From NCBI GenBank assembly GCA_002897955.1, contig BDTY01000050.1, positions 2,641-66,640 of the forward strand: DNA of 64,000 bases. The letters run 5' to 3'. Below the pieces are notes generated by a model. It was not told the DNA's origin and did not search any database. It saw only the letters and a list, made by a program, of their open reading frames with translations. The translations under genes and the position numbers were made by a program. Source of the DNA: an archaeon BMS3Bbin15. GTDB taxonomy: Archaea > Hydrothermarchaeota > Hydrothermarchaeia > Hydrothermarchaeales > BMS3B. This document shows positions 3,540 to 62,881 of this stretch, one piece after another (within the stretch, counting starts at the first letter, position 1; every line of letters starts with the position of its first letter).

Positions 3540-5570
3540 ATAACAATCTCATGCATACTTTCCCCTCCTTTCAGGACTGCCACGAATCTGCTTTTATTTC
3601 TCTTTTGTTTTTGCTGTGTTTATCCCCTGATATTGATTTATCGAGCTCCTGCCCGTAAATCAGCAGCATATATCCCCCTTCCCTTCCTATTCCTTCCTTT
3701 ACTTTTTCCCCCATAAAAATACCTCCATATTGTACATATATATCCTTTTTGTAACAATTGAAATGTTGGAACCCATATTTCCCACCCCTATAATACCGAA
3801 CTCTGCGATTTATCTGTCATCTTCCACTGGCCGCAATAGATATCTGCAGTAAAGCCAGACATTTCTACCACCCGCCGTTGGTTGTTTGTTAGTGGTTTTG
3901 ACAGCCAGATTGTCATCTGCCCTTTGTGAATCATATATAGGACAAGGATACCAGAAAGGACGGTTTGAAGAGCATAAGAGGTTGGTTTCTTGGTTTTTTG
4001 CCGGTTGAGCCCTCTGATAGGTTTTTCATCCTTTACTGCCAATGCCATCCTTACCCGCCTTTCCCACAGAGTGTAGATTACAGCGGCCATCATCAAGACA
4101 TATCCAAGGGACGCAAGACGTTCCTGTTTCTTTAGACAGAAAGCACCTATCCATGCAGGGTTCTTTATGAATTTGAATATCCGCTCGACATTTCCCTGAC
4201 CTTTGTATTTCTCCAGAACCAATCTTGCAGGGTACTTTTTCGCATCCATCAAAGTTGTTATCAGCACGAACATCCCGCACCGCTCTAAAGCGTTATTGAC
4301 TGCGTCCTCTCTCACTAACAACCTACCGCTCAGATAATACCCTGTCTGGAATTGACGTACATCGCCCTTCTTCGGCCTTCCTCGTTTTGTCCGCTTGAGA
4401 GCCTCCGTTCTCTCTTCTATATTCCATTCAATATCGTGGTAGCCCATCTGAAAATCGGAATTATGTCTGTTGATTTCAATATATGCGTCTTCCATGCAGG
4501 CAAATCGCCTTTTCAACAGTTTCTGGATGCGTTTGCTGTTCATATCGAATTCTTTTTTGACAGACCGCTCTACGGCCTTTGTTTTTCGCTTGTCCTTGTG
4601 GTCGGAGTGGACAACCACGAACCGATACGTTTGGCCGTCTATCTCGCCGCTGGTATCCCAGACCTTGTAGGATGCGGCATCTTTCTCCTGCGAGAGCTTG
4701 CCGACAGGAGTCCATTCGTCGGTGTTGAACGCCTTCTTCTTCAGCTCATCTTCGATTCCGAATCTTCCTGGCAATCGCGAAATGATATCTATATTTGCCT
4801 CCTTGCGTATTCTGAGGTTGTTTGTTGTCACCGCTGAACTGTCGGCGATGTAAAGTAGGAATTCATCATCTTCCTCTTTTTGCATTATGTTCCTGAGGTT
4901 CTTGACCCAGCGTCCGTTGAGGGTCATGTCCGACTCGTTACCATTGGCCACTTCACCAATGATTGGAACCCCGTCTGCGGTCGTGCCCACCCCGAAGATC
5001 AATTGTTTCAGGTCTGGCCGATGGTCCTTGGAGTAACCAAGGTTGACCTGCGGAACTGTTTCGTCCTCAAAATCATCCTTGTAGGCACCATGGAACGACT
5101 TCGAGGTGGTGTCTACATGGACGGCATCGGTTGAAAGCCCATGGACCGCTATCGCGGAATTGACGACCGCCCCGAACACTTGTTGAGGGTTTGCCTCCCA
5201 TAAAGCGTCCAGCACCCTTCCAGCACGGTCATCGTTGATATCTACAACGCTAAGATCAGGTTTCCAGGGAATAAGGAGGGGGAGGGCCTTGTCTTTGAAG
5301 AACTCGTCCATTTTGTACATCTTGATGTTGACATCACCCAATATGTGATGTATGAAAAGCCCCACATAAGTCCCTGCATCGACGTTTACCTGTGTGTCGT
5401 AGGGCTGGACGATGCTGTTAATAGTCCCTGCCAGACCAATCTCTTCCATAAGTTGGCCCAATATAGGGTAATAATCCGCCCTGAGGGCATGGATGTTGCC
5501 ATATTTTTCAAACATAGTTGAATAATGCAGCCGGAATATTTAAACCTTATGACCGTTATTAGGACATAAT
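3540..5570. mobile_element. insertion sequence (IS1634-like), ends approximate
   Basis: A single transposase ORF flanked by non-coding sequence. I could not identify terminal inverted repeats by eye, so the boundaries are uncertain. Confidence 0.35.
3788..5515 (-). CDS. DDE transposase, IS4/IS1634-like family
   Basis: 575 aa. It carries the GYSKDHRPDLKQ signature that I associate with IS1634-group transposases. The size fits that family. Confidence 0.6.
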   Translation of the reverse strand: MFEKYGNIHALRADYYPILGQLMEEIGLAGTINSIVQPYDTQVNVDAGTYVGLFIHHILGDVNIKMYKMDEFFKDKALPLLIPWKPDLSVVDINDDRAGRVLDALWEANPQQVFGAVVNSAIAVHGLSTDAVHVDTTSKSFHGAYKDDFEDETVPQVNLGYSKDHRPDLKQLIFGVGTTADGVPIIGEVANGNESDMTLNGRWVKNLRNIMQKEEDDEFLLYIADSSAVTTNNLRIRKEANIDIISRLPGRFGIEDELKKKAFNTDEWTPVGKLSQEKDAASYKVWDTSGEIDGQTYRFVVVHSDHKDKRKTKAVERSVKKEFDMNSKRIQKLLKRRFACMEDAYIEINRHNSDFQMGYHDIEWNIEERTEALKRTKRGRPKKGDVRQFQTGYYLSGRLLVREDAVNNALERCGMFVLITTLMDAKKYPARLVLEKYKGQGNVERIFKFIKNPAWIGAFCLKKQERLASLGYVLMMAAVIYTLWERRVRMALAVKDEKPIRGLNRQKTKKPTSYALQTVLSGILVLYMIHKGQMTIWLSKPLTNNQRRVVEMSGFTADIYCGQWKMTDKSQSSVL

Positions 5571-17352: not shown

Positions 17353-18075
17353 ATGAGAACTAAGGGTATCATTCTTCTTCTCATTATTATTCTAATTTCA
17401 GCAGGTTGCCTGCAGACAAACAGTGAGGGCTCATCAGGTTATTCAAAATCAAACACCACAATTTCTGTTTCAGGTGAAGGCATAGTTACGGGAGTGCCTG
17501 ACAGAGCTGTGCTCAACCTTGGCGTTGAAACCAGGGGGAATACCTCAATGGAAGCCTCGGAATCAAATTCTAGACTGAGCAGAAATCTTGTGGCGGTATT
17601 TAAGGGCATTGGAATTAATAGAACAGAAATCAAAACCTCCACTTTAACTATATCTCCAGTTTACACTTATATCAAAAAGGAGCAGAAAATTGTAGGTTAC
17701 AAAGCCATAACCAGCTTTAAGATAACCCTTAAGAATCTGAGTCTCGCAGGAATGGTTATAGATAAAGGGCTTGAAGCCGGTGCGAACAGGATGCAGGGAG
17801 TATCCTTCAAATTCAGCAAAAATAAATCAAAAGAACTTAAGGCTGTTGCTCTTAAAGAGGCTGTGGAAGATGCAACATCAAAGGCAGAAGTTATAGCTGG
17901 TGCCCTCAATGTTACACTTGGTAAGCCCATAAAAGTAACAGAAAGTTACTCATATAATCCTGTTCCCATCTACACCCCAATGACTGAAGCAATGAAAGGA
18001 GTAACTCCAGTGGAGCCCGGAGAAATGAAACTTAAAGCAGGAGTAAATATAGAGTATTCCTTCACTCAGTCTTGA
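17353..18075 (+). CDS. SIMPL/DUF541 domain lipoprotein
   Basis: A signal peptide with a lipobox-like SAGC is followed by ISVSGEGIVTGVPDRAVLNLGVETRG, which is typical of the SIMPL family. Confidence 0.6.
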   Translation: MRTKGIILLLIIILISAGCLQTNSEGSSGYSKSNTTISVSGEGIVTGVPDRAVLNLGVETRGNTSMEASESNSRLSRNLVAVFKGIGINRTEIKTSTLTISPVYTYIKKEQKIVGYKAITSFKITLKNLSLAGMVIDKGLEAGANRMQGVSFKFSKNKSKELKAVALKEAVEDATSKAEVIAGALNVTLGKPIKVTESYSYNPVPIYTPMTEAMKGVTPVEPGEMKLKAGVNIEYSFTQS

Positions 18076-21000
18076 GGAAATCCTTCAAACTCTTCTGCTC
18101 ATTACTTTCATCGTCAAAGAGGGAAGCTATACTCATTCTGAGAATCTCCACCCTCTGTTTCAGATAGCTCTCCAGAGAATATCGCTGAATAAGGTCTTCT
18201 GTGATATTTAAATACTTCTCCACACCTCCTCTCGACACAGTGAGAACAAGCTTGCCTCCACAGCGCCTGCACTTGCCTGTCAGAGGTATTCTCCTGTATT
18301 TTGCATTGCAGTTAACACACCTCACCCTCTGTGTCGAGAATGCTCTCAGATTGCCTGCAAGGTCAGGTAAAAAGTGTGTCTCAATCACCCTTCTTGCCAC
18401 ATCCTGTTCATCCACTGCCCTAATCTTTTTTGCAAGAGCAAGCTGTTTCTCAAGTTTCTCAGTCATCTCTCCAAGGGTTTTGTATGCAGATGTAAGGGGA
18501 GCAAGATTTATATCACTGGTATCATGGGTAAAGCCAAGATTATGGTAAGCTTCGTCAGTTCCCAGGCGGGAGGACACTGTCTCTATAATATCCTCAAATT
18601 CCTGTGGCCTTGCATACCTGAGTGTTGCCTCATAAAATTCAAGAGGGTACCCTGAAACAATGTCTATGTTATGAGCTTCATGGTCCACCTCACTTGGATC
18701 AAGATGGGTTGTAAGAACAAGAGGAGCATCCATTGTACTCCCTCTTGTTGAGGGCAGAAACTTCCTTGAAAAGTTAAGAAGAGCATCCATGAGAAGAAAA
18801 ACTCCATCCTCATCGCCATCACAGTTGTAGGCAAAGATATTATTTACAGGTACAATATGAGAGGGCTCCACATTCAGAGAAATCACATAAGAGGAATCTG
18901 ACGGAGCTGTCCTCTTCTCAACTATTTCATCAAACCAGACCTCACCATTTCCTTTATCCACTCCCTTAGGAGAAATAAGTAATTCTCCAACCTTCATATC
19001 CATTGCATATTTCTCCTCAATCTTATTCTTGAAGAAAACAGGAAATTTGTGGTCAGGGGTTACTCTGATTTCTCTACCACTGTGGGTTTTAAGATATATC
19101 AGATAATCTGGTGAGGTATGAATAGAAACCTCTTTTACTTCACCTTTAATAATTCTTTTTTCAGATAAATTATAAGAAGAAACAAAGATTCTATCTTCAG
19201 GCATAAGTATTCTGGTTCCAAAACTATCCTCTGATTTCCCACTGCAATAGCTCACCAGATGTCTGAGACTGATATACCCTTTTCCATACACATAAATTTT
19301 TTCATCAGGATGAAAACAGTTCCTTCTCTTTGCTGCATGAAAATAGGGATGGGCATAGCCTGCATTGGCTTTTGAGAAACCAGCAATCCTTCCGAGAATG
19401 GCTGCTGAAGTATGAGGTGCAAGCCCCAGCACAAGATGCCCGACAAGGTCTTCTTTATTTTCAGCCCTGTAGTATGGCTCAAGTCCATAGAACTTAACCA
19501 GCAGTTCGTCAATAAACTTTGTAACTTTAAGAAGATAATCTGCACCGGAAAGAGGAAGTATAATATCCTGAGGCTTGAGCTCAAGAATCTGCTCCTCATC
19601 CACAAGAGGTTCACCCTTATTATCCCTGTCATAACCAAGCATTTTCAGTATCTCAAGACTTACCATTACCTCTCTGGGTCTGAAGTGTGTCAAAGGTATA
19701 TCTGTAGAGTCAAATCTTATTGTACCATCCTTGAAAACATATACTCCATGCCTGGCTCTGAGAAGCCCTTTCTCAATAGGCTCTGGAATCTTATAGAGAG
19801 ATGTCATTCCTATTATACCTTTGACAACCTCTCTACCAGAGCTGCCCACTCTTGCTTTTGCTCTTTCGTATAGAGTTTTAATGTCAATTTCACGTTCAGA
19901 ATACAGGTTCAATCTGGAGCTGCATTTCGGGCATGTGCTCTCCCTTATATCCCCTGTATATCCACAACTCTGGCATTTTCTTTTAAAAACTGTGGGCTCA
20001 CCACAGCGCTGGCAGAGAGTTGTTATACCTACCTTTGAACAGCTCTCACAGTATCTATACACAACTTCAATCTTAATTTTACCCTTCCTGACTGCCTTCT
20101 CTACCTCCCTTGTTTTTCCTCCATTTCTGCCTATGGGAAAGAGAACATTTACAGCAGGAGACATCTTTCTTTCTTTTGCCTTTTCAGGTCTGCCCATCCT
20201 GAGACCTATGTAGCTCGGTGCCTTCTCCCTTACCTTAATTCCAAAGGAATTCACAAGTTCCATGGTGCTCTCTACCTTTGAACATGCCTCCTCAAAGTTT
20301 CCATTTACCAGACCAAAACAATAAAGAAGGGCTTTAAATTCCTGAAGAACAATATAGCGAGCTTCAACCCTGTGGGGCACACCAAGAAACTCAAGAAGAC
20401 GCTTTTCCCGACTCAGAGGAACATAGAGTTCTTCATCCCTGACCTCACCCTTTTTTAGCATGTTGTGGAGCAATTTCATGTCTTCAAGGGTTAAGTCATG
20501 ATAGAAGTATGTATAGCGCGGATGAAGAGGGATTCCAAGCTCTTCTGAAATTCTGATGGCAATTTCTTCATCAGGAATATTTTCAATGTCCAGATATTCT
20601 GTGTACTTACTCTTTTTCTCTCTCTCAAGCTCCTGAACCCACCACTCCTCACAGTAACCCGCAGGAATTAAAATATGATTGTTTTCAAGGAAATCCCCAT
20701 AATTCACCAGAATATCCCCCATGAAGAGTATCTCGTCCACATCTTCTCTTACTTCTAAAGCCTGAGAATAGCTCTCAACCCTTAAAACACTTCCATCCTT
20801 AAGCCTGACTATTGGCCCATCAATTGTATCACAGGGAGTAACAGCTGTGCCCTTACCAGGCCTCTCAGTCTTCAGCTGAGTGCCTATAGCTATAAAGTCA
20901 TCAGTCAGAACCATAGTCGCAGGATGCATGCTCATGGCAGCGAAACCAGAGTTTCTGCTCCTGCCATAGCGAAGTCTGAAGCCTCCCTTTTCCGAGGGAT

Positions 21001-21916
21001 GGGAGAGTACAGGTCTGCCTGCCACAAGTTCTTTAATATACTTGAAGCTGGGCTCTATTTTAACATCCTTCTCTTCACTGTCATCTGTAACTCTTGAGGC
21101 AGCAAACTCGCCAAGCCATTCCCAGCTTTCAAAGCCCAGCTTATTCACGTACTTCAGAATCTTGCCTACCTTCTGGAGCACACCCTCAGCAAGAACAAGC
21201 ACAGCCCCTCCTCTCAGAGAATTGGTTTCAATCCTCTCAAGATTTCTGTAACCACTCACCTCAACCTTTTCGGTTGGCTCCCCTGTTATCTCCACAGGTA
21301 TGTTTTTTACAGCTTTTCTTATATCCTGCGGTTCTGGATGATACTGCAACCTTGCAGCCTCGGTATTGTAAAGGTCAACCTCCTCAACAAACCTCTCTAT
21401 CTCATCATCAGTCGGTTTATAAGATTTAAGACCAAGACCCACTCTTATGGCATCGCCTACAAGCACAGCAAGAGCCTGAGCAGAGCCACCTGCCGACCTT
21501 ATGGGCCCTGCAAAGTATATGGCAAGGTAGTCTGTACCATCATTATTTTTTTTAATCCTCACCTTTACTATACCCTCAAGCGGTGCAGCCACAATTCCTT
21601 CCGTTATCAGGGCAAGAGAAGTTCTGAGAGCCTGCTCGGCAGTTTTTTCCATGCCTTCAAATCTTCCGAATTTTCCCTTAACAATCTCTCCAGCTATCTT
21701 TATTGCTGCCTCCTCATTACTCATCTCCTCCACGAGCTCTCTTATTCTGGGTGCAACCCCTTTCGGCCCAACCAGACCTTCAACACGCTCTGCCATATCC
21801 TTTGCAAAGGGTATCTCAGGCTCAAGCTCCGGGTCAAAACCTCTACTTCTGGCTTTCAGAGCTATACTATGTGCTCTCTTCACCCCTTCTTCCAGTGAAC
21901 GAAAATAATCTTCCAT
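18062..21916 (-). CDS. polC: DNA polymerase II (PolD) large subunit DP2, intein-containing
   Basis: 1284 aa. It has the DP2 N-terminus and Zn-finger clusters. The catalytic motif HPYFHAAKRRN/CDGDED is interrupted by a 165-aa insertion. Confidence 0.9.
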   Translation of the reverse strand: MEDYFRSLEEGVKRAHSIALKARSRGFDPELEPEIPFAKDMAERVEGLVGPKGVAPRIRELVEEMSNEEAAIKIAGEIVKGKFGRFEGMEKTAEQALRTSLALITEGIVAAPLEGIVKVRIKKNNDGTDYLAIYFAGPIRSAGGSAQALAVLVGDAIRVGLGLKSYKPTDDEIERFVEEVDLYNTEAARLQYHPEPQDIRKAVKNIPVEITGEPTEKVEVSGYRNLERIETNSLRGGAVLVLAEGVLQKVGKILKYVNKLGFESWEWLGEFAASRVTDDSEEKDVKIEPSFKYIKELVAGRPVLSHPSEKGGFRLRYGRSRNSGFAAMSMHPATMVLTDDFIAIGTQLKTERPGKGTAVTPCDTIDGPIVRLKDGSVLRVESYSQALEVREDVDEILFMGDILVNYGDFLENNHILIPAGYCEEWWVQELEREKKSKYTEYLDIENIPDEEIAIRISEELGIPLHPRYTYFYHDLTLEDMKLLHNMLKKGEVRDEELYVPLSREKRLLEFLGVPHRVEARYIVLQEFKALLYCFGLVNGNFEEACSKVESTMELVNSFGIKVREKAPSYIGLRMGRPEKAKERKMSPAVNVLFPIGRNGGKTREVEKAVRKGKIKIEVVYRYCESCSKVGITTLCQRCGEPTVFKRKCQSCGYTGDIRESTCPKCSSRLNLYSEREIDIKTLYERAKARVGSSGREVVKGIIGMTSLYKIPEPIEKGLLRARHGVYVFKDGTIRFDSTDIPLTHFRPREVMVSLEILKMLGYDRDNKGEPLVDEEQILELKPQDIILPLSGADYLLKVTKFIDELLVKFYGLEPYYRAENKEDLVGHLVLGLAPHTSAAILGRIAGFSKANAGYAHPYFHAAKRRNCFHPDEKIYVYGKGYISLRHLVSYCSGKSEDSFGTRILMPEDRIFVSSYNLSEKRIIKGEVKEVSIHTSPDYLIYLKTHSGREIRVTPDHKFPVFFKNKIEEKYAMDMKVGELLISPKGVDKGNGEVWFDEIVEKRTAPSDSSYVISLNVEPSHIVPVNNIFAYNCDGDEDGVFLLMDALLNFSRKFLPSTRGSTMDAPLVLTTHLDPSEVDHEAHNIDIVSGYPLEFYEATLRYARPQEFEDIIETVSSRLGTDEAYHNLGFTHDTSDINLAPLTSAYKTLGEMTEKLEKQLALAKKIRAVDEQDVARRVIETHFLPDLAGNLRAFSTQRVRCVNCNAKYRRIPLTGKCRRCGGKLVLTVSRGGVEKYLNITEDLIQRYSLESYLKQRVEILRMSIASLFDDESNEQKSLKDFLKTE
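18824..19318 (-). other. mini-intein (about 165 aa, no homing endonuclease domain) in DP2
   Basis: The insertion starts with Cys (CFHPDEKIY...) directly after AAKRRN. It ends ...NIFAYN and is followed by the +1 Cys of CDGDED. The resulting extein junction reconstitutes the canonical DP2 catalytic motif. Coordinates are from codon counting and are accurate to about 1 nt. Confidence 0.75.
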
Positions 21917-21917
21917 A

Positions 21918-23396
21918 TCAGATGAACTCCATTTTCACAATTTTGAGAGTCTGAAGGTCAACAACAGGTATTTTTCCAGGTGTGGGTTGAAGATTTACCT
22001 TTTTCTGGAAGGAAGTCTGTGACTGAAATGTGCCAGAGTTTATTACCAGAGTATTTCTGTAGGTGAGATGGTCAAAGGTATGAACATGACCCATGTGAAG
22101 AATTTCAGGCAACTCTTCAAGTATGAGGTAATCAGTATTTTCTGGGGCCAGAGGTACTTTTCCTCCATAAATTGGAGATAGATGCCTCTTCTTCAGAAGG
22201 CTGAGCATGGCTTTGGCCGGCTTTGTATAGCTCATGCCAGGTATGGCTGAAATTATATCATCAAGACTCCTCCCATGGTAGCTCACCACTCTAACGCCGT
22301 GAAGCTCTGCAGTTAAGGGGTTACCTGTCATGTGAATTCTTGGGTCTTCATAGTACTCCTGGACAAAATCTTCACTTATAGCAGGCTGAGGTTCAGCCTG
22401 CCTTGTGGCATCGTGGTTGCCTGGCGTTATAATAATTTCAATATAATCAGGAATCATACTGAGATATTCATAGAATTTAGCATACTGCTTATGAATATCC
22501 CTGATAACAAGTTCTTCCTTCTGTTCAGGGTAAATCCCAACTCCATCAACAATATCTCCTCCAATAACGATATACTTAACCTTCGAGGCAAGCTCTCTCT
22601 GGGAACTATTACCCTCTTCCATGCGAAGCCATTTTATAAATCTGAGAAAAACGTCGTCGAGGAATTTGGCACTTCCTACATGCACATCTGAAATAAGAAC
22701 TGCAACAACAGGGTCGGGGCTCTTTCTCACCTCCCTGTTAATAGGAACATCGGGGAAGAAAATCTCATTAACAATGAAGAGACCTCTGCCATATTTTCCT
22801 TTCAACCCTATTATTTCATCTGTTACTATCTCAGTGGAAATCTTTTTTAAATCTTCATCTCTATTCAGTATCAATGCATTGGATATTCCACTGGGGTCTT
22901 CAAGCTCAATTAAAATATGCCCCCTTTTTGTTTCCTTTTTATTATTCACTATACCGATAATGGAACTCTCAGAAGGAGAGTGATTTTTCACAATCTCAAT
23001 TAGATTTGAGCCTGTAAGAGCCTGCCTGTTTTTCAGAACTTTACCAAGAACCTCGTATCTATGATTAAAAAATTTAACAAAATTGTTTATATTGCCTGAA
23101 GTGAAACTTTTTGAAGTTATGTCCTTACTGCGACTTATTTTTATATCAGCATCATATTCTTCAGCTGTTACCTTTTTTCTCCCTTTAATTATAACCTCAG
23201 TTTTTTTTTCATTTCCATTTTTTATTTCATCAAGAAGTTCCTGGGTTACGACGGAAGTGCCCTTCCGCTTTGTGATATCCAGAATCCTGCTCATATCCAA
23301 CTCTGAAGAGCAAAGCTGTCTCAGTTCTCCGAGTACAGAGGGATGGATATTGATATTACAATCAAGAAACCTGCATAGAATTTCAGTTTTATTCAT
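21918..23396 (-). CDS. polB: DNA polymerase II (PolD) small subunit DP1 (3'-5' exonuclease, calcineurin-like phosphoesterase)
   Basis: 492 aa. It carries metallophosphoesterase motifs (GDIVDGVG, GNHD). It sits directly upstream of DP2 with a 1-nt gap. Confidence 0.85.
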   Translation of the reverse strand: MNKTEILCRFLDCNINIHPSVLGELRQLCSSELDMSRILDITKRKGTSVVTQELLDEIKNGNEKKTEVIIKGRKKVTAEEYDADIKISRSKDITSKSFTSGNINNFVKFFNHRYEVLGKVLKNRQALTGSNLIEIVKNHSPSESSIIGIVNNKKETKRGHILIELEDPSGISNALILNRDEDLKKISTEIVTDEIIGLKGKYGRGLFIVNEIFFPDVPINREVRKSPDPVVAVLISDVHVGSAKFLDDVFLRFIKWLRMEEGNSSQRELASKVKYIVIGGDIVDGVGIYPEQKEELVIRDIHKQYAKFYEYLSMIPDYIEIIITPGNHDATRQAEPQPAISEDFVQEYYEDPRIHMTGNPLTAELHGVRVVSYHGRSLDDIISAIPGMSYTKPAKAMLSLLKKRHLSPIYGGKVPLAPENTDYLILEELPEILHMGHVHTFDHLTYRNTLVINSGTFQSQTSFQKKVNLQPTPGKIPVVDLQTLKIVKMEFI

Positions 23397-23422: not shown

Positions 23423-24658
23423 TTATAGCAATAGTTTCTGAGTGATTATATAATTCCTCAGACTGCTGAGCCTGACATCTTCAAGAATACAATCTTTTAT
23501 TCTTGAGATTGGCACTTCAAGCTTTATCTCCTTTGTTCTTCCATATCTTCCCTTGCTTATTACCTTCGAGTTGAGAATACCAAGAAGATCAAGCTCTGAA
23601 ATTAAATCCGATACTCTTCTCTGAGTAAGCGGGTCTATGGAAACATACCTGCACAGACTCGTGTAGATATCGTAAATTTTACCTGTGCTTATAAACTTCT
23701 CCTTCCTCTCCTCGAGGTAAATCACGGCATAGAGTAAAAGCTTTGACTGGGTCGGAAGTGTCTGGATAGCTTCAACTATATTGTCCGATTCAATCTTGCT
23801 GTTAGCTTTTCTGACATGCCTTTCTGTAGCTATACTTGCATTCTCCCTTTCAGCCACCTCTCCACTCACCCTCAAAAGGTCAAGGGCCTTTCTTGCGTCA
23901 CCATGGTCACGAGCTGCAAGAGCGGAGCATAGAGGTATGACATACTCATCGAAAGAACCTTCCAAAAAGGCGAGCTCAGCCCTTCTCTTGAGAATATCCT
24001 CAAGCTGCTTTGCATTATAAGGCTTGAAAATTATTTCATCTCTTCCGAGGGTGCTTAAAACTCTATTATCCAGATAATCAGTAAATTTAAGGTCATTTGA
24101 TATACCTATAACACTCAATTTCGAATTTTTTAGTTCAGAGTTTATTCTTGTCAGGTAATATAAAACTGAATCTCCATGTTTACCTACTATTCTATCTATT
24201 TCATCCAGAACAACTATTATAATATTATTCTCACTATCCGCTCCCTCCTTAAAAGAGTCATAAACTTTATCTGTAGGCCAGCCTGTAAAGGGAACATTCT
24301 TTCCAAACTCATTTGCAAGAGTGCAGAGAATTCTATACTGGGTGTTTACAAGTTCACAGTTTATATATACAGTTTTTATATTGAAATCAACTTTCGAGCT
24401 TGCTCTCTCAAGCTCACTGCACACAAACTTTGTCACTATTGTTTTCCCTGTTCCACTCTTGCCATATATAAGCACATTAGAAGGGGTCTCCTCTTTAAGC
24501 GAAGGAGCTATAAGAGAAGCCAAATATTTTATCTCTTCCTCCCTGTGAGGCAATTCATCTGGAGTATAAGAATGTCTTAATACCTCCCTATCTTTAAATA
24601 TAGGCTGCTTCTTTAAAAAAGGTTCAAATATTCCTGTAAAAGAGCTTTTGCTATCCAT
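23423..24658 (-). CDS. cdc6: Orc1/Cdc6 replication initiator
   Basis: AAA+ Walker A GKSGTGKT, Walker B VVLDEID, C-terminal winged helix. It is adjacent to the polD genes. Confidence 0.85.
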   Translation of the reverse strand: MDSKSSFTGIFEPFLKKQPIFKDREVLRHSYTPDELPHREEEIKYLASLIAPSLKEETPSNVLIYGKSGTGKTIVTKFVCSELERASSKVDFNIKTVYINCELVNTQYRILCTLANEFGKNVPFTGWPTDKVYDSFKEGADSENNIIIVVLDEIDRIVGKHGDSVLYYLTRINSELKNSKLSVIGISNDLKFTDYLDNRVLSTLGRDEIIFKPYNAKQLEDILKRRAELAFLEGSFDEYVIPLCSALAARDHGDARKALDLLRVSGEVAERENASIATERHVRKANSKIESDNIVEAIQTLPTQSKLLLYAVIYLEERKEKFISTGKIYDIYTSLCRYVSIDPLTQRRVSDLISELDLLGILNSKVISKGRYGRTKEIKLEVPISRIKDCILEDVRLSSLRNYIITQKLLL

Positions 24659-24959
24659 AACTGATATCTCCTCGACCTAATTAGCATTGATAAGAGCAGG
24701 TATTCTTTTGTAGTCAGTATATATATTACTTATGTCTATCCAAGCTTTCTTTCTTGTAGAGTCTGCTTACCACACTATCACAGAGACCCCATTATTTCTA
24801 CTGGAAACATTATTGTGAAGTATGTTATTGCAATATCTGTTCAAAAGATTTATATATGATAATATCGTAAATTTCAGATGGATATTTTATTACTCCTTAT
24901 TTTTATATCATTCTATTTTATTACTCCTTTTGTTCTATAGGAAATATAGGGGGTGGGTG
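24659..24959. other. putative replication origin (oriC) region upstream of cdc6
   Basis: A 300-bp AT-rich intergenic region with ORB-like elements (TCTACTGGAAAC at about 24794; GGAAATATAGGGGGTGGG at about 24948). It has AT-rich unwinding stretches and a 16-bp direct repeat ATTTTATTACTCCTT at about 24884 and 24914. Confidence 0.5.
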
Positions 24960-25487
24960 TCAGTACTCCAGATTATCGAGAAGTTTTCTAATTTCTCTTA
25001 TATTCCTCATAAGTCCTTCAAATTCTTCAAGATAAACCTTCTTTTTTAGACTTTTATTTAGGTTTATATTGAAAAAAAAGCTGTAGTAATTATGATATTT
25101 TATTGAAATATCAAAATATTTCTTTTCTAGGTTTTCTGGAGTGTCATAGAGCTTTATTATTTCAATCTTAAGATTTTTAATTTCTTTTTTTATATCTTCT
25201 TTCACTCTTCTCATCAATCTATTCCAGTAAATATCGTTTATATCTCTCCTTCTCTTCCCTTCCAGTAATATTCCAGCTTCTTCTGATTCTCCATACGGAC
25301 CAGGAATAAAAGTTTCTTCACTTATCCTGTTCTCTTCTTTTTTTAAAAGAAGTATTTTATTCTCTATAATTAATGTGTTTAATAAACTTTCAAGTTTTTT
25401 ATGTGGAATACTCTTAGCTATTACCTTCAAATCATCTGGCTTTAAATAATTTAAAGAATTTACAGTAAAGATAATATCTTCTTTCAT
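24960..25487 (-). CDS. hypothetical Lys/Glu-rich protein
   Basis: 175 aa, very AT-rich coding sequence, no recognisable motif. Confidence 0.3.
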   Translation of the reverse strand: MKEDIIFTVNSLNYLKPDDLKVIAKSIPHKKLESLLNTLIIENKILLLKKEENRISEETFIPGPYGESEEAGILLEGKRRRDINDIYWNRLMRRVKEDIKKEIKNLKIEIIKLYDTPENLEKKYFDISIKYHNYYSFFFNINLNKSLKKKVYLEEFEGLMRNIREIRKLLDNLEY

Positions 25488-25744
25488 ATTTTTATAGTTT
25501 CCAGTTCGCTGCTGACATTCCAGATGAGAGTTCTGGCATGCAGAGGCAGGTTTCTATCATTGCTTATCTCTTCGAGAATATATATAGCTGAGCTGACTCT
25601 TACTCCCATGTCTTTACCCTTATTGAGAAGTGTAGTTCTTGCTTCTTCTGCAGCTCTTCTGATATTCCTGGGAACTGAAGTATCTTCAATTAACTGGCTC
25701 AGCACCTTACATATCTGTTCAACTTTAGTCTCTTCATCAGTCAT
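25484..25744 (-). CDS. small conserved archaeal protein (UPF0147-like)
   Basis: 86 aa. The motif SVPRNIRRAAEEA recalls the UPF0147 family. This assignment comes from memory only. Confidence 0.35.
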   Translation of the reverse strand: MTDEETKVEQICKVLSQLIEDTSVPRNIRRAAEEARTTLLNKGKDMGVRVSSAIYILEEISNDRNLPLHARTLIWNVSSELETIKI

Positions 25745-57794: not shown

Positions 57795-59720
57795 ATGAAA
57801 GAATTTGATACAAGGGGCAGGAGTATAGAGGATTCAACCATAGACCCTGCCAATGTGGAACTTTTGAAAATAGCAAAAAAGGATGGAATAGATACAGCTT
57901 TTGACAGGGTTCAGAAGCAGGAGCCAAAGTGCAAATTCTGCGAGGAAGGAGTCTCTTGCAGGAACTGTAATATGGGCCCATGTAGAATTACCCAAAATTC
58001 ACCCAGAGGGGTATGCGGTGCCACGGCTGATACTATGGTTGCCAGAGGACTTCTCCAGAATACAATAGGAGGGGCGGCATCCCATATGGACCATGCAAGA
58101 CATGTGGCTATACTTTTACGGGAGGCTGGCATGGGTAATGCTCCATATAAGATTAAGGATGAGGCAAAGCTTAGAAGGATTGCCGGGGATCTAGGAATTG
58201 AAGGGGCTGACACAAAGGATAAAAAGCTGCTTGCCATGGAGGTGGCAAACAGGGCTCTGCAGGACCTGGGAAGGCAGCACGGCGAAGATGCCATGGACTG
58301 GATTAAACTGCATGCCCCTGAGGAGCGTATTGATACATGGAAAAAACTTGGCATTCTACCATTCGGTGGAAATGTTGTGGTAAATGAAGGTATGCACAGG
58401 AGAACTATGGGTGTGGATGCAGACCCTGTAAACATAATACTTGGTATGCTGAAAACAGGTATTGTCGATGGGTATGGCGGCCTTGCTATGTCAACGGATT
58501 TGCAGGATATTCTTTTTGGAAGCCCAAGTCCAAAAATTTCAGAGGCTGGGCTCGGTGTACTCAGGGAAGACTATATCAATATTTCCACACATGGCCATGT
58601 GCCCCTGCTCTCAGAGAAGATTGTGGATGCAGCCGAAGAGCTGGAGGAAGAGGCAATAAAGGCTGGAGCAAAGGGTATAAATGTGGTGGGACTTTGCTGT
58701 ACTGGAATAGAGCTACTGGAAAGAAAGGGGATTCCCATAGCAGGAAATGAATTGAATACTGAGACTGCCATTATAACCGGGGCTATGGAAGCTGTGGTGG
58801 TAGATTATCAGTGTATATATCCGGGGCTTGTGCCTGTGGCAGATAATTTCCATACTAAAGTTATCACCACTGCCGATATCGCAAAGATTCCTGGCGCAGA
58901 ACACATAGAGTTCAATGAAAAAGAAGCTGATGAGGTTGCTAAAAAGATTGTGAGACTGGCAATAGATAACTTCAAGAATAGGGACCCGAAGAGGGTTAAC
59001 ATACCAAATGTAAAGTCCAAAGTTATGGCAGGTTTTACCCCTGAGGTTTTGCTGGCGGTACTCTCTAAAATTAACAAAGAGGACCCGTTAAAACCTCTGG
59101 TGGACGCTATCACTGAAGGTAAAATCCGTGGTGCAGTGGCTATTGTGGGCTGTAATAATCCAAGGGTAAAACATGATTTCATGAATGTTGGGATTGCCAG
59201 AGAGCTCATAAAGCGCAATGTACTTGTGATATCTACTGGATGCGTTGCCACAGCCCATGCAAAGTCAGGGCTTATGAATCCTGACACAGCCTATAAGGAG
59301 GCAGGAGAGGACCTTCAGGGTGTATTGAAAGTTCTGGGCAGGGCTGCTGGTATGGAGGCTCTGCCACCTGTACTAAACTTTGGCTCATGTGTGGACAACT
59401 CCAGGATAGGAGACCTTTTGAAGGCACTCTCTGACAGGATTGGTGTGCCAATAAAGGACCTCCCTGTGCTTGCCAGCGCACCGGAATATACAACTGAGAA
59501 AGCACTTTCTATAGGCACATGGGCAGTAAGCCTTGGGGTTACCACCCATGTAAATCCGCCGCCGAGAATTTCAGGCAGCCAGCTTGTGACAAAAATACTG
59601 ACAGAGGATGCGGAAGGCCTGGTCGGGGCCACTGTTTTTACCGGCTCTGACCCTGTGGAAACAGCCAGAGTAATGATAGAAAAGATAGAAGAAAAAAGAA
59701 GAAAACTGGGCTTGAATTAA
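57795..59720 (+). CDS. cooS: Ni-dependent carbon monoxide dehydrogenase catalytic subunit CooS
   Basis: N-terminal Cys cluster CKFCEEGVSCRNCNMGPCRI (B/D-cluster ligands). Length about 640 aa. The start is set at MKEFD, preceded by GGAGGTGG. Confidence 0.8.
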   Translation: MKEFDTRGRSIEDSTIDPANVELLKIAKKDGIDTAFDRVQKQEPKCKFCEEGVSCRNCNMGPCRITQNSPRGVCGATADTMVARGLLQNTIGGAASHMDHARHVAILLREAGMGNAPYKIKDEAKLRRIAGDLGIEGADTKDKKLLAMEVANRALQDLGRQHGEDAMDWIKLHAPEERIDTWKKLGILPFGGNVVVNEGMHRRTMGVDADPVNIILGMLKTGIVDGYGGLAMSTDLQDILFGSPSPKISEAGLGVLREDYINISTHGHVPLLSEKIVDAAEELEEEAIKAGAKGINVVGLCCTGIELLERKGIPIAGNELNTETAIITGAMEAVVVDYQCIYPGLVPVADNFHTKVITTADIAKIPGAEHIEFNEKEADEVAKKIVRLAIDNFKNRDPKRVNIPNVKSKVMAGFTPEVLLAVLSKINKEDPLKPLVDAITEGKIRGAVAIVGCNNPRVKHDFMNVGIARELIKRNVLVISTGCVATAHAKSGLMNPDTAYKEAGEDLQGVLKVLGRAAGMEALPPVLNFGSCVDNSRIGDLLKALSDRIGVPIKDLPVLASAPEYTTEKALSIGTWAVSLGVTTHVNPPPRISGSQLVTKILTEDAEGLVGATVFTGSDPVETARVMIEKIEEKRRKLGLN

Positions 59721-59754: not shown

Positions 59755-60022
59755 AGAACTCGAATTTTATTGAAACTAACATCGGGCTTAAGGGAAGTTT
59801 TGCCGTAGGCAAATTTGAGTGGAAGAAACTACAAGACTTCGCAGTCTCTTAATGCTTGTTATATTTGTCTGAGCGATGACCAAGGGCTAGGGGCGTAGGA
59901 TTTTTTGTTTTTAGAAAAAAGAAAATAAGGGGCATCTTGTTTTGGTTCTTTTTCTAAAAGAACATTTAGGGTGTCTTTAAAAGAGAAAATTTAATAAATA
60001 TGGTGATTATATTATAATTATA

Positions 60023-62818
60023 ATGAATGAAAAAGAAACTAGAGAGCAGTTAATAGACAAACAGTTAAAAACTGCTGGATGGCTTAAGAAGTATATTAAA
60101 GAAGAAGTAAATTCTGTTAAATCTAATTTTAAAACTAAGGAATATGTGCTGTCTCAAGGTAGAGAGGATAATTCTGGAAGATTTATAGATTACTTACTGC
60201 TGGCTGAAGATAATAGTCCAATTGCTTTAATTGAAGCAAAAAAATTCTCTGTTTCAGAAGATAAAGGAAGGGCTCAATCAAGAACTTATCTTAAAAATAT
60301 TGAATCTCAAACAAAGGAGAAAATTCCGATTTTTTTAACTAATGGTAATAAATGGCTTCTTATAACTCAGGACGGAGTTGAGAGTTATGTTAGCGGACCT
60401 TTTTCTCAATCTGACTTAAAGAGAAGAATGGAACTTTTTAGGAAGAGAAGAGACCCGACTAAAATAAACATTGGGAAGATTGTAGATAGACCAAAGAGCA
60501 TTCTTATTGTAAAACAAATGATGGAACATATTCAGATTGGGTATAAATCTGCTTTAATCAATATGGCTACTGGAACAGGAAAAACAAGAGTTGCTATGGC
60601 TGTGATTGATGTTCTTTTAAGGTCAAATATTGTAAGAAATGTTTTATTCATTGCTGATAGAATTGCATTGGCTAATCAGGCAAAATCTGCTGGCTTCAAG
60701 GAGTTTTTTTCTGAGGCAGTTGTTGATTTAAGAGAAAGTCCGAAGAGTTTTCCAAATGGACTATATGTTTCAACAGTTCAAACGTTAAGGAGTGGGAAAA
60801 CTAAGAAATTTTTTGAAAGTTTTAGTCCTGGCTTTTTTGATTTGATTATTTTTGATGAAGCCCACAGGTCAATTTATGATCCAAATAGATTAATTTATAA
60901 ATATTTTGATGCAATAAAAATAGGTCTTACAGCAACACCCTCAACAGCCGAAAGTAGAAACACTTATGAGTTATTTGAATGTGAGGGAGATAAGCCAACA
61001 GTTGAATATTCTTATGATGAAGCTATAAGAGATGGAGTTTTAGTTCCATATAACGCAGAGATGATTGATACAAAGATTCTTTCGTTAGGAATAGACGGGG
61101 CAAGTTTAACAAGACAGCTTCAAGACCAATTAAGAAAACAGGAAGAAGACCCAAATTATACTATGCTTCCAGGTTCTTCATTCGCTAAGGTTTTCATGGA
61201 TGATAAAACCAATGAGTTAGTAATTAGGGAGTTTATGAATAGGTGCTACAAATCTGATGAAGGAAAACCTGCAAAAACGATTTTCTTTTGTGCAAATATC
61301 AAACATGCAGAGCATATCAAGAAAATTTTTAATAAGTTATTTCCTGCTGTAAGTAATGAAGTTCAAATGATTGTTTCTGATATATATAGGTATACTGACG
61401 AGATTTCAAGATTCAAACTTGATTCCGAGCCAAGAATTGCTTTGTCTGTTGGTGTTTTAGATACTGGAATTGATATTCCAGAAGTATGCAATTTAGTTTT
61501 TGCAAAACCTGTTTTTTCAGGAATAAGGTTCTGGCAAATGCTCGGAAGAGGAACTAGAAACTTAAGATCATGTAAACATAAGGAATGGCTTCCAAACAGA
61601 GAGAAAAACGATTTTTTGATTTTAGACTTTACTATTGGCGGACATTCAAATATAAAATATCATCATCTTAAAGAAGCTAAAGAGAGAAAACCTGGAACAG
61701 ACACTCTTACAAAAATTTTCTTGAATAGGGTTGAATTATTAAAGAAAGGATTAAATGCTAAACAGAAAGAATTTGTTGAAACTAAAATTGTTTATGAAGT
61801 TGATTCTTTAGATAAGGATTCTTTTATTGTAAGAGAAAAACTTCCGTTAATTAATAATATTTTAGATACTGTAAAAAATCCCTCAACCCCTATGATTGTT
61901 GCAGAGAGAACTGCTGAATATGGTGAAAAGGTTAAGAAAAGAGTGCAAAGAAAGTTTGATTTAAAAGATTACGTCAATGAATTAAGAAACGAAATTGCTC
62001 CTCTTATTTCATTAAATCCTGGAAAGAATCCTCTTGTTTCTTCATTTATTCTTCAAGTTGAAAAATTGTTTAAGTTTATCTTAGATGATGATAAAGATGG
62101 AATATATAAAATTCAAGAACATGTAAAGGAAAATATGGAGAATATTTTGCAGAAAGATAATTTAGAAGCCGTGCAAGAAAAGAAGGAAGATATTTTGAAA
62201 GTTTTTCAAGAGAATTTCTGGGATGAATTGACTTTTGAAGATGTTGAATTTATTATAATTGAGCTTGCTCCATTGATGGTTTATTATGAAAAAAATCCTA
62301 AGAGGATGCTTCAAGTTGATGCTCCTGATATAATTTTGAAAGTTGAGGAATTCAAAAAAGAAGTCAAGGAAGATGAAGAATTAAAAAAATTCTTAGAGAC
62401 AAACTCTCTTGTTAATAAGATTAGGAAAGGAGAAGGTATTACTCCTTCTGAGCTTCTTGAGTTAGAAAAGCAATTAAGCGCATTGAGACCTGAGATGACT
62501 ATTGACAATGTTCAGAGAATTCTAAAGATTGACTTCTTGCTCTTCATAAGAGAGATATTGAGTTTAAAGCAGGAATATGACCCTCGCGTTTTGATAGAAA
62601 GAGAATTTAATAAACATATTATTGAGAAAAATCAGAATTATACTTCTGAGCAGATTAAGTTTTTGCAGATTTTGAAAAAGGTTTTTGCTCGAACTAAACA
62701 CATTGAATTAAAGGATTTTACTGTTCCGCCTCTTTCTAATGAAAGACCTCTTGACAAGTTTCAGGATTCTGAGTTGCAGAAGATAGTTATTGAGTGTAAT
62801 AAGATTAAGATGATGTGA
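60023..62818 (+). CDS. type I restriction enzyme HsdR-like nuclease-helicase (no adjacent hsdM/hsdS in the window)
   Basis: 931 aa. The N-terminus (TREQLIDKQLKTAGW, then D...IEAKK) is a PD-(D/E)xK nuclease. SF2 helicase motifs I MATGTGKT, II FDEAH, III LTATP, VI QMLGRGTR. The C-terminal 370 aa are K/E-rich and unassigned. Confidence 0.7.
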   Translation: MNEKETREQLIDKQLKTAGWLKKYIKEEVNSVKSNFKTKEYVLSQGREDNSGRFIDYLLLAEDNSPIALIEAKKFSVSEDKGRAQSRTYLKNIESQTKEKIPIFLTNGNKWLLITQDGVESYVSGPFSQSDLKRRMELFRKRRDPTKINIGKIVDRPKSILIVKQMMEHIQIGYKSALINMATGTGKTRVAMAVIDVLLRSNIVRNVLFIADRIALANQAKSAGFKEFFSEAVVDLRESPKSFPNGLYVSTVQTLRSGKTKKFFESFSPGFFDLIIFDEAHRSIYDPNRLIYKYFDAIKIGLTATPSTAESRNTYELFECEGDKPTVEYSYDEAIRDGVLVPYNAEMIDTKILSLGIDGASLTRQLQDQLRKQEEDPNYTMLPGSSFAKVFMDDKTNELVIREFMNRCYKSDEGKPAKTIFFCANIKHAEHIKKIFNKLFPAVSNEVQMIVSDIYRYTDEISRFKLDSEPRIALSVGVLDTGIDIPEVCNLVFAKPVFSGIRFWQMLGRGTRNLRSCKHKEWLPNREKNDFLILDFTIGGHSNIKYHHLKEAKERKPGTDTLTKIFLNRVELLKKGLNAKQKEFVETKIVYEVDSLDKDSFIVREKLPLINNILDTVKNPSTPMIVAERTAEYGEKVKKRVQRKFDLKDYVNELRNEIAPLISLNPGKNPLVSSFILQVEKLFKFILDDDKDGIYKIQEHVKENMENILQKDNLEAVQEKKEDILKVFQENFWDELTFEDVEFIIIELAPLMVYYEKNPKRMLQVDAPDIILKVEEFKKEVKEDEELKKFLETNSLVNKIRKGEGITPSELLELEKQLSALRPEMTIDNVQRILKIDFLLFIREILSLKQEYDPRVLIEREFNKHIIEKNQNYTSEQIKFLQILKKVFARTKHIELKDFTVPPLSNERPLDKFQDSELQKIVIECNKIKMM

Positions 62819-62881
62819 ATTTGTAAACTTAAGTTTACAAATATAAGAAGCTTTATAAAGTACTTTGAATAACCTTCTATT

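What the first reader, a model, noticed from the sequence alone, without database searches (positions are those of the whole stretch)
24659..24959. Putative oriC with ORB-like boxes and a duplicated 16-mer upstream of cdc6-polD
The 300-bp AT-rich spacer upstream of cdc6 contains TCTACTGGAAAC (10/12 match to the archaeal ORB core TCCAGTGGAAAC). It also contains GGAAATATAGGGGGTGGG, a GGAAA core followed by a G-string as in full ORBs. AT-rich unwinding stretches are present (ATATATATTACTTATG, TTTATATATGATAATATCG). ATTTTATTACTCCTT occurs twice 15 bp apart. The arrangement cdc6 then DP1 then DP2 next to an origin is the canonical euryarchaeal layout.
Basis: partly seen in the sequence, partly recalled or inferred. 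Interest (0 to 1): 0.55.

Follow-up and report, generated by a model that had tools for sequence, protein, structure and literature searches.

The report
Archaeal replication origin upstream of orc1
The 300-bp spacer is a standard archaeal chromosome replication origin: two initiator-binding boxes face each other across an easily melted AT-rich stretch, next to the initiator gene; it is ordinary in kind, but no description of it for this uncultured hydrothermal lineage turned up.

Summary
The window comes from the MAG "archaeon BMS3Bbin15". On the minus strand it encodes orc1/cdc6, polD-DP1 and polD-DP2.

The 301-bp spacer upstream (24659-24959) holds two full origin recognition boxes (ORBs), each a dyad plus a G-run. 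ORB-B is at 24783-24806 (-) and ORB-A at 24933-24956 (+). They are inverted, with dyads facing inward, and flank a 126-bp stretch that is 79% AT and includes the least stable 80-bp segment of the whole 64 kb.

- A matrix trained only on ORBs from related genomes ranks these two sites first and second in the window (35.1 and 18.7 bits; the shuffle maximum averages 13.8).
- The same matrix finds the two genetically essential ORBs of Sulfolobus islandicus oriC1, in the same polarity.
- The layout is conserved in eight related genomes, and the same ORB type lies upstream of orc1 in 61 of 76 other euryarchaeal loci.

In vivo firing cannot be tested here. Verdict: a new member of a known kind, of low to moderate interest. 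A conserved promoter-like element inside the AT-rich stretch is unexplained.

The parts
23423..24658 (-). orc1/cdc6 initiator gene (411 aa), first gene of the orc1-DP1-DP2 cluster
   Evidence: Pfam Cdc6_C 5.2e-33 and Cdc6_lid 1.8e-25. NCBIfam equivalog NF001625 scores 591 bits against a cutoff of 501. The best solved relatives are S. solfataricus Cdc6-1 (2qby_A, 2.5e-110) and A. pernix ORC1 (2v1u_A, 3.7e-100), with the winged-helix recognition helix and the GRYGRTKEI wing conserved.
24667..24673 (-). Shine-Dalgarno-like GAGGAGA 8 nt upstream of the orc1 ATG
   Evidence: Read directly from the sequence. A GGAGA motif is conserved at this place in the relatives. Its role is inferred.
24717..24728 (-). 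Probable orc1 TATA box (TAATATATATAC).
   Evidence: Conserved as ATTATATATA about 60-70 nt upstream of the ATG in the closest relatives, and identical in the close strain. It resembles other promoters of this genome. It lies outside the ORB pair. Its role is inferred.
24749..24761 (-). Weak mini-ORB C (CTCTACAAGAAAG), 45 nt downstream of ORB-B and about 20 nt upstream of the orc1 TATA box
   Evidence: It scores 8.2 bits, which is chance level on its own (71 such sites in the window). Position supports it: a forward ORB lies 45-47 nt after ORB-B in 6 of 9 genomes. It is identical in the close strain.
24783..24806 (-). ORB-B, a full origin recognition box TTCCAGTAGAAATAATGGGGTCTC. The dyad is at 24794-24806 and faces the AT-rich stretch. 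The G-run is at 24787-24790 (CCCC on the + strand).
   Evidence: Best site of the whole window for a matrix trained on relatives only: 35.1 of a possible 37.6 bits, against a shuffle maximum of 25. Conserved in all relatives. Identical in the close strain.
24807..24932 (.). AT-rich duplex unwinding element (DUE) between the two dyads, 126 bp and 79% AT
   Evidence: The least stable 80-nt segment of the entire 64 kb starts at 24843. The 40-nt minimum starts at 24883 and is in the top 0.02%. The equivalent region is 72-86% AT in eight relatives.
24840..24856 (+). Conserved element inside the DUE that is not an ORB: TTCAAAAGATTTATATA. It reads as a BRE+TATA-like motif (the two core archaeal promoter elements) pointing away from orc1.
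   Evidence: A TATWWAW-N4-8-YGAW motif lies 69-79 nt from the ORB-A dyad in 8 of 9 genomes, although the DUE length varies from 126 to 288 nt. It resembles this genome's promoters. Its function is unknown.
24883..24898 (+). 16-mer direct repeat, copy 1 (TATTTTATTACTCCTT)
   Evidence: It lies in the least stable 40 nt of the DUE. Both copies carry the same G-to-A difference in the close strain.
24914..24929 (+). 16-mer direct repeat, copy 2, 31 nt after copy 1
24933..24956 (+). ORB-A, a full origin recognition box TTCTATAGGAAATATAGGGGGTGG, inverted relative to ORB-B. The dyad is at 24933-24945 and faces the DUE. The G-run is at 24949-24953. It abuts the stop codon of the 175-aa ORF.
   Evidence: Second-best site of the window at 18.7 bits, with about 0.05 such sites expected per 64 kb. 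An inverted full ORB sits at this place in all eight relatives. In the close strain the dyad reads TTCTACTGGAAAT, nearer the consensus.
21918..23396 (-). PolD small subunit DP1 (492 aa)
   Evidence: Pfam DNA_pol_E_B and Metallophos. The gene order is conserved in the relatives.
18062..21916 (-). PolD large subunit DP2 (1284 aa, with an intein)
   Evidence: Pfam PolC_DP2_N, PolC_DP2_central and PolC_DP2_cat, plus Intein_splicing.

Best explanation
The spacer 24659-24959 is a chromosomal, Orc1-dependent replication origin of the oriC1 type, with an ORB-DUE-ORB layout. The organism is the uncultured archaeon BMS3Bbin15.

Proposed mechanism:
1. One Orc1 monomer binds each full ORB with fixed polarity. 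The winged-helix domain sits on the dyad (TTCYANWRGAAAT) and the AAA+ initiator-specific motif on the GGGG run 4 nt further on.
2. ORB-A and ORB-B are inverted with their dyads inward, so the two initiators face each other across the 126-bp AT-rich stretch.
3. ATP-bound Orc1 loads MCM there. The duplex melts first in its least stable part, 24843-24922, which includes the two 16-mer repeats.
4. A third, weak box (mini-ORB C) lies 45 nt beyond ORB-B, just upstream of the orc1 TATA box. It probably adds cooperative binding and couples origin occupancy to orc1 transcription.

Shown here: the sequence elements, their significance, polarity and conservation, the instability of the stretch between them, and the type of initiator. 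Inferred from Sulfolobus, Aeropyrum and Pyrococcus work: Orc1 binding, MCM loading, and firing in vivo.
For: - Initiator. The adjacent gene is an Orc1-1-type initiator whose closest solved relatives are the ORB-bound S. solfataricus Cdc6-1 and A. pernix ORC1.
- ORB significance. A matrix built from relatives only ranks ORB-B and ORB-A first and second among about 128,000 positions. Both exact matches to the full-ORB pattern lie in the spacer.
- Cross-check against a proven origin. The same matrix scores the two genetically essential ORBs of S. islandicus oriC1 at 24.1 and 17.8 bits, in the same arrangement of dyads inward and G-runs outward (sequence from PMC12141716; origin anatomy).
- Unwinding element. 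The stretch between the dyads is 79% AT and includes the least stable 80-nt segment of the window.
- Conservation. Eight genomes with Orc1 65-78% identical keep an inverted distal ORB, then an AT-rich stretch, then forward ORBs, while the rest of the spacer cannot be aligned. A strain with 99% identical Orc1 keeps ORB-B and mini-ORB C unchanged.
- Generality. In 61 of 76 other euryarchaeal orc1 loci, a site of at least 14 bits lies within 900 nt upstream. The density is 2.31 per kb there against 0.079 per kb elsewhere. Inverted ORB pairs were found in 38 loci, many flanking AT-rich stretches of about 110-240 nt.
- Skew. After removing the coding-strand effect, the GC3 skew change point fits best between 21.9 and 29.1 kb, a range that includes 24,809. 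Only 15 of 2000 permutations did as well.
- Literature. ORB clusters next to cdc6 are the accepted signature of archaeal origins (PMC1904270; PMC4640148; PMC4010727).
Against: - No functional data can be had here.
- The raw cumulative GC skew reaches its minimum near 33 kb, about 8 kb from the spacer. This coincides with the switch in gene orientation and is explained by coding-strand skew. The corrected analysis has low resolution.
- The roughly 5.5 kb to the right of the spacer is mostly transcribed toward it.
- ORB-A is a degenerate copy at 18.7 bits, and mini-ORB C is at chance level on its own.
- Some archaea, such as T. kodakarensis (PMC5663688, listed), grow without using their ORB-bearing origin. 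A canonical origin sequence therefore does not prove use.
Confidence: 0.85

Rival explanations
1. The ORBs are only autoregulatory operators of the orc1-polD promoter, or the locus is a dormant origin. Orc1 binds here to control its own transcription, while replication starts elsewhere or by recombination.
For: Mini-ORB C lies about 20 nt upstream of the probable orc1 TATA box, and ORB-B lies 45 nt further. Some archaea with a canonical ORB origin do not need it (PMC5663688, listed), and dormant origins exist in haloarchaea (PMC4595724). The raw GC-skew minimum is 8 kb away.
Against: An operator role does not explain the distal inverted ORB-A, the conserved dyad-inward polarity, or the extreme instability of the stretch between the boxes. 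Origin and autoregulation are not exclusive in known systems. The corrected skew is compatible with this site.
Confidence: 0.1
2. It is the origin of an integrated plasmid or virus that carries its own Orc1 gene, not the chromosomal origin.
For: Archaeal mobile elements often carry orc1 genes with cognate ORBs (established knowledge). The window contains a transposase and a low-GC restriction island.
Against: The orc1 gene sits in the housekeeping cluster aaRS-p27-UPF0147-175 aa-orc1-DP1-DP2. That cluster is syntenic in genomes down to 65% Orc1 identity. The protein passes the chromosomal ORC1 equivalog model. The mobile-looking genes are 20-35 kb away.
Confidence: 0.02
3. It is a chance resemblance in an AT-rich promoter spacer.
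For: Mini-ORB-like 13-mers are scattered through the window, 71 sites of at least 8 bits.
Against: The full ORBs score far above every shuffle. They are inverted around the least stable DNA of the window. They are conserved in position and polarity across nine genomes.
Confidence: 0.01

Closest known systems
Sulfolobus (Saccharolobus) islandicus / solfataricus oriC1, ORB3-DUE-ORB2, bound by Orc1-1
   Same: - The ORBs are short, about 22-24 bp, with the G-run 4 nt after the dyad.
- There are two inverted ORBs with dyads inward, flanking an AT-rich stretch of roughly 100 bp.
- The orc1-1-type gene is adjacent.
- The window's matrix recognises both essential Sulfolobus ORBs (PMC12141716).
- The initiator is the closest solved relative (2qby_A).
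   Different: - The Sulfolobus ucm motif (ATTATACAAAAG), which is bound by the protein UBP, does not match beyond chance.
- A different conserved element, TATA-like plus YGAA, sits in the AT-rich stretch.
- The host is a euryarchaeon-like lineage with PolD genes downstream.
- The number of origins in this genome is unknown.
Pyrococcus abyssi / furiosus oriC (Thermococcales)
   Same: The gene order is oriC-cdc6-dp1-dp2. The ORBs are inverted around AT-rich DNA and share the dyad core TTCCAGTGGAAAT (PMC1904270).
   Different: - Pyrococcus ORBs are 34 bp, with the G-run about 8-9 nt after the dyad. They score only 8-9 bits with this matrix.
- The Pyrococcus origin is about 800 bp with many mini-ORBs and has a second ORB cluster inside dp1. 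No such cluster is seen here.
- This origin spans only about 174 bp from ORB to ORB.
oriC1 of other euryarchaea (Methanosarcinales, Methanomicrobiales, Methanocellales, some Archaeoglobi, haloarchaea)
   Same: The same 21-nt ORB type lies upstream of the orthologous orc1, with inverted distal and forward proximal copies. AT-rich stretches of about 110-240 nt are common (review PMC4010727).
   Different: - Those origins usually have 3-7 strong ORBs. This one has two, plus a degenerate third.
- Haloarchaeal ORBs carry an extended G-string.
- The position-locked element in the AT-rich stretch was not found at that position in other orders (0 of 29 loci).
Aeropyrum pernix oriC1 ORBs (22 bp; ORC1-ORB4 crystal structure 2v1u)
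   Same: The ORB is short, with a dyad followed closely by GGGG. The initiator is 3.7e-100 to 2v1u_A. The 22-bp length is cited in PMC1904270.
   Different: The exact A. pernix ORB sequence was recalled from memory and not checked here. The host is a crenarchaeon.

Membership tests
Archaeal Orc1/Cdc6-dependent origin (oriC1 type, ORB-DUE-ORB) | Adjacent initiator gene of the Orc1-1 / Cdc6-1 clade | tested here: met
   Pfam Cdc6_C and Cdc6_lid. NCBIfam NF001625 at 591 bits against a cutoff of 501. 2qby_A at 2.5e-110.
Archaeal Orc1/Cdc6-dependent origin (oriC1 type, ORB-DUE-ORB) | At least two ORBs (dyad plus G-run) beyond chance expectation | tested here: met
   The sites score 35.1 and 18.7 bits and are the top two of the window. 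The shuffle maximum averages 13.8. Both exact pattern matches fall in the spacer.
Archaeal Orc1/Cdc6-dependent origin (oriC1 type, ORB-DUE-ORB) | ORBs in inverted orientation flanking an AT-rich, easily melted stretch, with the same polarity as proven origins | tested here: met
   Dyads face inward and G-runs outward, as in S. islandicus oriC1. The stretch is 79% AT and includes the least stable 80-mer of the 64 kb.
Archaeal Orc1/Cdc6-dependent origin (oriC1 type, ORB-DUE-ORB) | Conservation of the elements at orthologous loci | tested here: met
   Eight relatives and one close strain. In addition, 61 of 76 other euryarchaeal loci.
Archaeal Orc1/Cdc6-dependent origin (oriC1 type, ORB-DUE-ORB) | Strand-composition switch at the locus | tested here: inconclusive
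   The raw skew minimum is near 33 kb and follows gene orientation. The orientation-corrected GC3 skew change point lies at 21.9-29.1 kb, with 15 of 2000 permutations doing as well. Only 64 kb were available.
Archaeal Orc1/Cdc6-dependent origin (oriC1 type, ORB-DUE-ORB) | Specific binding of the cognate Orc1 to the ORBs | not testable with these tools
   This needs gel-shift, footprinting or ChIP experiments.
Archaeal Orc1/Cdc6-dependent origin (oriC1 type, ORB-DUE-ORB) | Initiation in vivo (marker frequency, 2D gels, autonomous replication) | not testable with these tools
Thermococcales-type oriC (Pyrococcus) | Long 34-bp ORBs, many mini-ORBs over about 0.8 kb, and a second ORB cluster inside dp1 | tested here: not met
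   Pyrococcus ORB1 and ORB2 score 8-9 bits because their G-run is spaced differently. The spacer is only 301 bp and holds three boxes. There is no enrichment in dp1.
Crenarchaeal ucm/UBP-containing origin | The ucm motif ATTATACAAA(AG) midway in the AT-rich stretch | tested here: not met
   There is one 2-mismatch match in the AT-rich stretch, against 0.28 expected.

The most novel reading that the evidence does not exclude
Besides the ORBs, the AT-rich stretch carries a third class of functional element, found in this lineage. It is a BRE/TATA-like motif at 24840-24856 on the + strand, locked 69-79 nt from the distal ORB in 8 of 9 genomes. It points away from orc1, toward the two 16-mer repeats and ORB-A. 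The two repeat copies differ from those of a close strain in the same way, which suggests concerted evolution. On this reading the motif is either an origin-internal promoter whose transcription or TBP/TFB binding helps open the origin, or the binding site of an unknown accessory factor. The second case would be analogous to, but different from, the Sulfolobus ucm/UBP pair.
Probability: 0.25. Interest if true: 0.5.

Novelty: new member of a known kind. Interest (0 to 1): 0.25.

Why it matters
- It locates the likely replication start of an uncultured hydrothermal archaeon (BMS3Bbin15, related to Hydrothermarchaeales). My two literature searches found no origin description for this lineage.
- It gives a compact ORB-DUE-ORB unit of about 174 bp, close to the minimal Sulfolobus oriC1 design but in a PolD-bearing lineage.
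- This supports the view that oriC1 with a short ORB is ancestral and widespread.
- It also provides anchor coordinates for orienting MAG contigs.
- It provides a small set of conserved elements that are not ORBs, which could be tested for accessory-factor binding.

Tried and rejected
- The ORB core alone as evidence: at chance level.
- A Thermococcales-like second ORB cluster inside dp1: a few weak mini-ORB-like 13-mers near 22.8 kb, but no enrichment.
- A second origin in the window: the next best full-ORB hit (58711-58734, 14.4 bits) is at chance level and lies inside a Prismane/CODH-family gene.
- A known RNA in the spacer: Rfam found none.
- The Sulfolobus ucm motif: not present beyond chance.
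- The element inside the AT-rich stretch as a pan-euryarchaeal feature: not found at the same position in 29 other loci. Many of those stretches do contain some TTTATATA-like run.
- A 20-codon ORF starting at the ATG at 24877, which would fit a leaderless transcript from that element: frame-shifted in the close strain and absent in the relatives, so rejected as a gene (my own reading).
- Raw GC skew as a locator: dominated by coding-strand skew.
- The 175-aa neighbour as an origin factor: no family or PDB match. The AlphaFold model was too poor to search with (pLDDT 51). A deeper alignment could not be submitted.
Close relatives were obtained through exact-protein look-ups instead.

Full report
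**Observation**

The duplicated 15-mer is in fact a 16-mer, TATTTTATTACTCCTT, at 24883 and 24914. Its period is 31 nt and the gap is 16 nt.

The three minus-strand genes to the left of the spacer are:
- an Orc1/Cdc6 initiator (23423-24658; Pfam Cdc6_C 5.2e-33),
- PolD DP1 (21918-23396),
- PolD DP2, which contains an intein (18062-21916).

To the right, also on the minus strand, lie a 175-aa orphan ORF, a UPF0147 protein, a class II aminoacyl-tRNA synthetase and a CBS protein. A p27-like gene lies on the plus strand.

The exact Orc1 and 175-aa sequences belong to the MAG "archaeon BMS3Bbin15", which NCBI lists as unclassified Archaea. The nearest named Orc1 relatives are Candidatus Hydrothermarchaeales MAGs at 60-68% identity.

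**Is it more than chance?**

That is not significant: TCCANTGGAAA with up to two mismatches occurs 103 times in the window against 100 expected.

The region becomes significant once it is read correctly. On the minus strand the first box is TTCCAGTAGAAATAATGGGGTCTC, a dyad followed 4 nt later by a G-run. The second box, TTCTATAGGAAATATAGGGGGTGG, is a full ORB on the plus strand.

- The only two exact matches in 64 kb to a full-ORB pattern both lie in the spacer.
- To avoid circularity I trained a 24-nt matrix on 13 ORBs taken only from related genomes.
- It ranks ORB-B (24783-24806, minus strand; 35.1 of a possible 37.6 bits) and ORB-A (24933-24956, plus strand; 18.7 bits) first and second among all positions on both strands.
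- In 200 shuffles the best score averaged 13.8 and never exceeded 25.0. About 0.05 sites of at least 18.7 bits are expected per window.

**Anatomy**

The two ORBs are inverted, with their dyads facing each other and their G-runs outward. They enclose 126 bp (24807-24932) that are 79% AT.

- With nearest-neighbour energies, the least stable 80-nt segment of the entire window starts at 24843.
- The least stable 40-nt segment inside the pair starts at 24883, exactly over the two 16-mers. It is in the top 0.02% of the window.

It is conserved as ATTATATATA about 60-70 nt upstream of the orc1 start in the closest relatives and is followed by a GGAGA ribosome-binding motif. It is best read as the orc1 TATA box.

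A third, degenerate box (mini-ORB C, 24749-24761) is at chance level on its own at 8.2 bits. It sits 45 nt after ORB-B, however, and six of nine genomes have a forward ORB 45-47 nt after ORB-B.

**Comparative evidence**

Exact-protein look-ups gave eight related genomes with Orc1 65-78% identical. Seven keep the same neighbourhood, aaRS-p27-UPF0147-174 aa-spacer-orc1-DP1-DP2. L087 has different upstream genes.

Their spacers are 313-581 bp and are otherwise unalignable. All nine genomes, counting the window, share:
- an inverted full ORB abutting the upstream gene,
- an AT-rich stretch (72-86% AT),
- then one or more forward ORBs.

A strain with 99% identical Orc1 differs at about 5% of spacer positions but keeps ORB-B, mini-ORB C and the TATA box unchanged. 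Its ORB-A dyad reads TTCTACTGGAAAT, closer to the consensus.

More broadly, 76 orc1 loci from other euryarchaeal orders were scanned.
- 61 have at least one ORB of this type scoring 14 bits or more within 900 nt upstream. The density is 2.31 per kb there against 0.079 per kb in the rest of each locus.
- 38 show an inverted ORB pair, often around AT-rich stretches of about 110-240 nt.

**Comparison with proven origins**

The S. islandicus oriC1 fragment used by Dhanaraju et al. (PMC12141716, supplementary oligonucleotide P23) contains the two ORBs whose mutation abolishes origin firing. My matrix scores them 24.1 and 17.8 bits, in the same arrangement of dyads inward and G-runs outward. ORB-A of the window, at 18.7 bits, is thus as good as a functional Sulfolobus ORB.

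The window's Orc1 is closest among solved structures to the ORB-bound S. solfataricus Cdc6-1 (2qby_A, 2.5e-110) and A. pernix ORC1 (2v1u_A, 3.7e-100). The winged-helix recognition helix and the wing are nearly identical.

Pyrococcus ORB1 and ORB2 (PMC1904270) share the dyad but place the G-run further away, and they score only 8-9 bits. The Thermococcales-specific second ORB cluster in dp1 is not evident here.

The locus therefore has the Pyrococcus gene order but the Sulfolobus/Aeropyrum type of short ORB. The Sulfolobus ucm motif is not present beyond chance.

**Skew**

The raw cumulative GC skew has its minimum near 33 kb. Nearly every gene has a positive coding-strand skew, and gene orientation flips near 32.7 kb, so the raw curve follows transcription.

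I fitted plus-strand GC3 skew per gene as an orientation term plus a replication-side term.
- The best change points lie between 21.9 and 29.1 kb, and 24,809 is among the best four.
- The sign is the one expected for an origin.
- Only 15 of 2000 permutations gave an equal improvement.

This is compatible with the ORB site but too coarse to be decisive.

**Mechanism**

By analogy with the Sulfolobus, Aeropyrum and Pyrococcus systems:
1. Orc1 monomers bind ORB-A and ORB-B with fixed polarity.
2. They face each other across the AT-rich stretch.
3. In the ATP-bound form they recruit MCM there.
4. Melting should start in the 24843-24922 segment.
5. Mini-ORB C, next to the orc1 TATA box, probably links origin occupancy to orc1-polD expression.

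The sequence features are shown here. Binding, loading and firing are inferred.

**Rivals**

- An operator-only or dormant-origin reading cannot be excluded, because some archaea do not use their canonical origin (PMC5663688, listed). It does not, however, explain the distal inverted ORB or the extreme instability between the boxes.
- A mobile-element origin is unlikely, given the conserved housekeeping synteny and the equivalog-level match of the Orc1.
- Chance is excluded.

**Unexplained extras**

- A TATWWAW-N4-8-YGAW element lies 69-79 nt from the ORB-A dyad in 8 of 9 genomes, although the ORB-to-ORB distance varies from 126 to 288 nt.
- Read on the strand opposite to orc1 (window 24840-24856, TTCAAAAGATTTATATA), it resembles this organism's BRE+TATA promoters. 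It points away from orc1, through the 16-mers and ORB-A. It is not found at that position in other orders.
- Both 16-mer copies carry the same G-to-A difference in the close strain. This suggests concerted evolution or selection for identical copies.

These features are the only parts of the locus that go beyond the standard picture.

**Verdict**

This is a canonical Orc1-type origin, a new member of a known kind, in a lineage for which my two literature searches found no origin description.

Noticed in passing
window 24840-24856 (+): A conserved BRE/TATA-like element inside the AT-rich stretch, TTCAAAAGATTTATATA. It is locked 69-79 nt from the distal ORB in 8 of 9 related genomes and points away from orc1. 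It is neither an ORB nor the Sulfolobus ucm motif.
   Followed up: partly
window 24883-24898 and 24914-24929; L096 and L097: Both copies of the 16-mer repeat carry the same G-to-A difference in a strain whose Orc1 is 99% identical, which suggests concerted change. The closest relatives, L083 and L086, have RATGAAATA pairs at the same places with a period of about 30 nt.
   Followed up: partly
window 24960-25487 (-): A 175-aa ORF whose stop codon abuts ORB-A. It is conserved in this position in 7 of the 8 related genomes (all but L087) and shares PEEN, GPN and NLExxYFDLSIKYH motifs with its counterparts. It has no Pfam, NCBIfam or PDB match. The AlphaFold model was poor (pLDDT 51; helical C-terminal half).
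   Followed up: partly
L089, L092, L093, L094, L095 (spacer upstream of orc1): Relatives with larger origins have a further forward ORB whose dyad is followed by a C-run instead of a G-run, for example GAAATGATACCCCCTCCC. In four of the five it lies 45-47 nt after the main forward ORB; in L092 it is the first forward ORB. The window lacks this variant.
   Followed up: no
window 18062-21916 (-): The PolD large subunit DP2 carries an intein (Pfam Intein_splicing, about residues 913-1116). The DP2 genes of the related genomes are 1105-1122 aa and lack it.
   Followed up: no
window 60000-64000: A low-GC block (about 30% against 40%) encodes a type I restriction enzyme R subunit (60023-62818, +). 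It is probably a horizontally acquired defence island.
   Followed up: no
window 3788-5515 (-): A DDE transposase with a DUF4277 domain, that is, an insertion sequence.
   Followed up: no
window 25484-25744 (-): A UPF0147 protein that also matches the NCBIfam 'stationary phase-response protein' family (SRE_fam). It is part of the conserved block next to the origin.
   Followed up: no
window 58711-58734 (+): The third-best full-ORB-like site, at 14.4 bits. It lies inside a Prismane/CO-dehydrogenase-family gene and is within chance expectation.
   Followed up: yes
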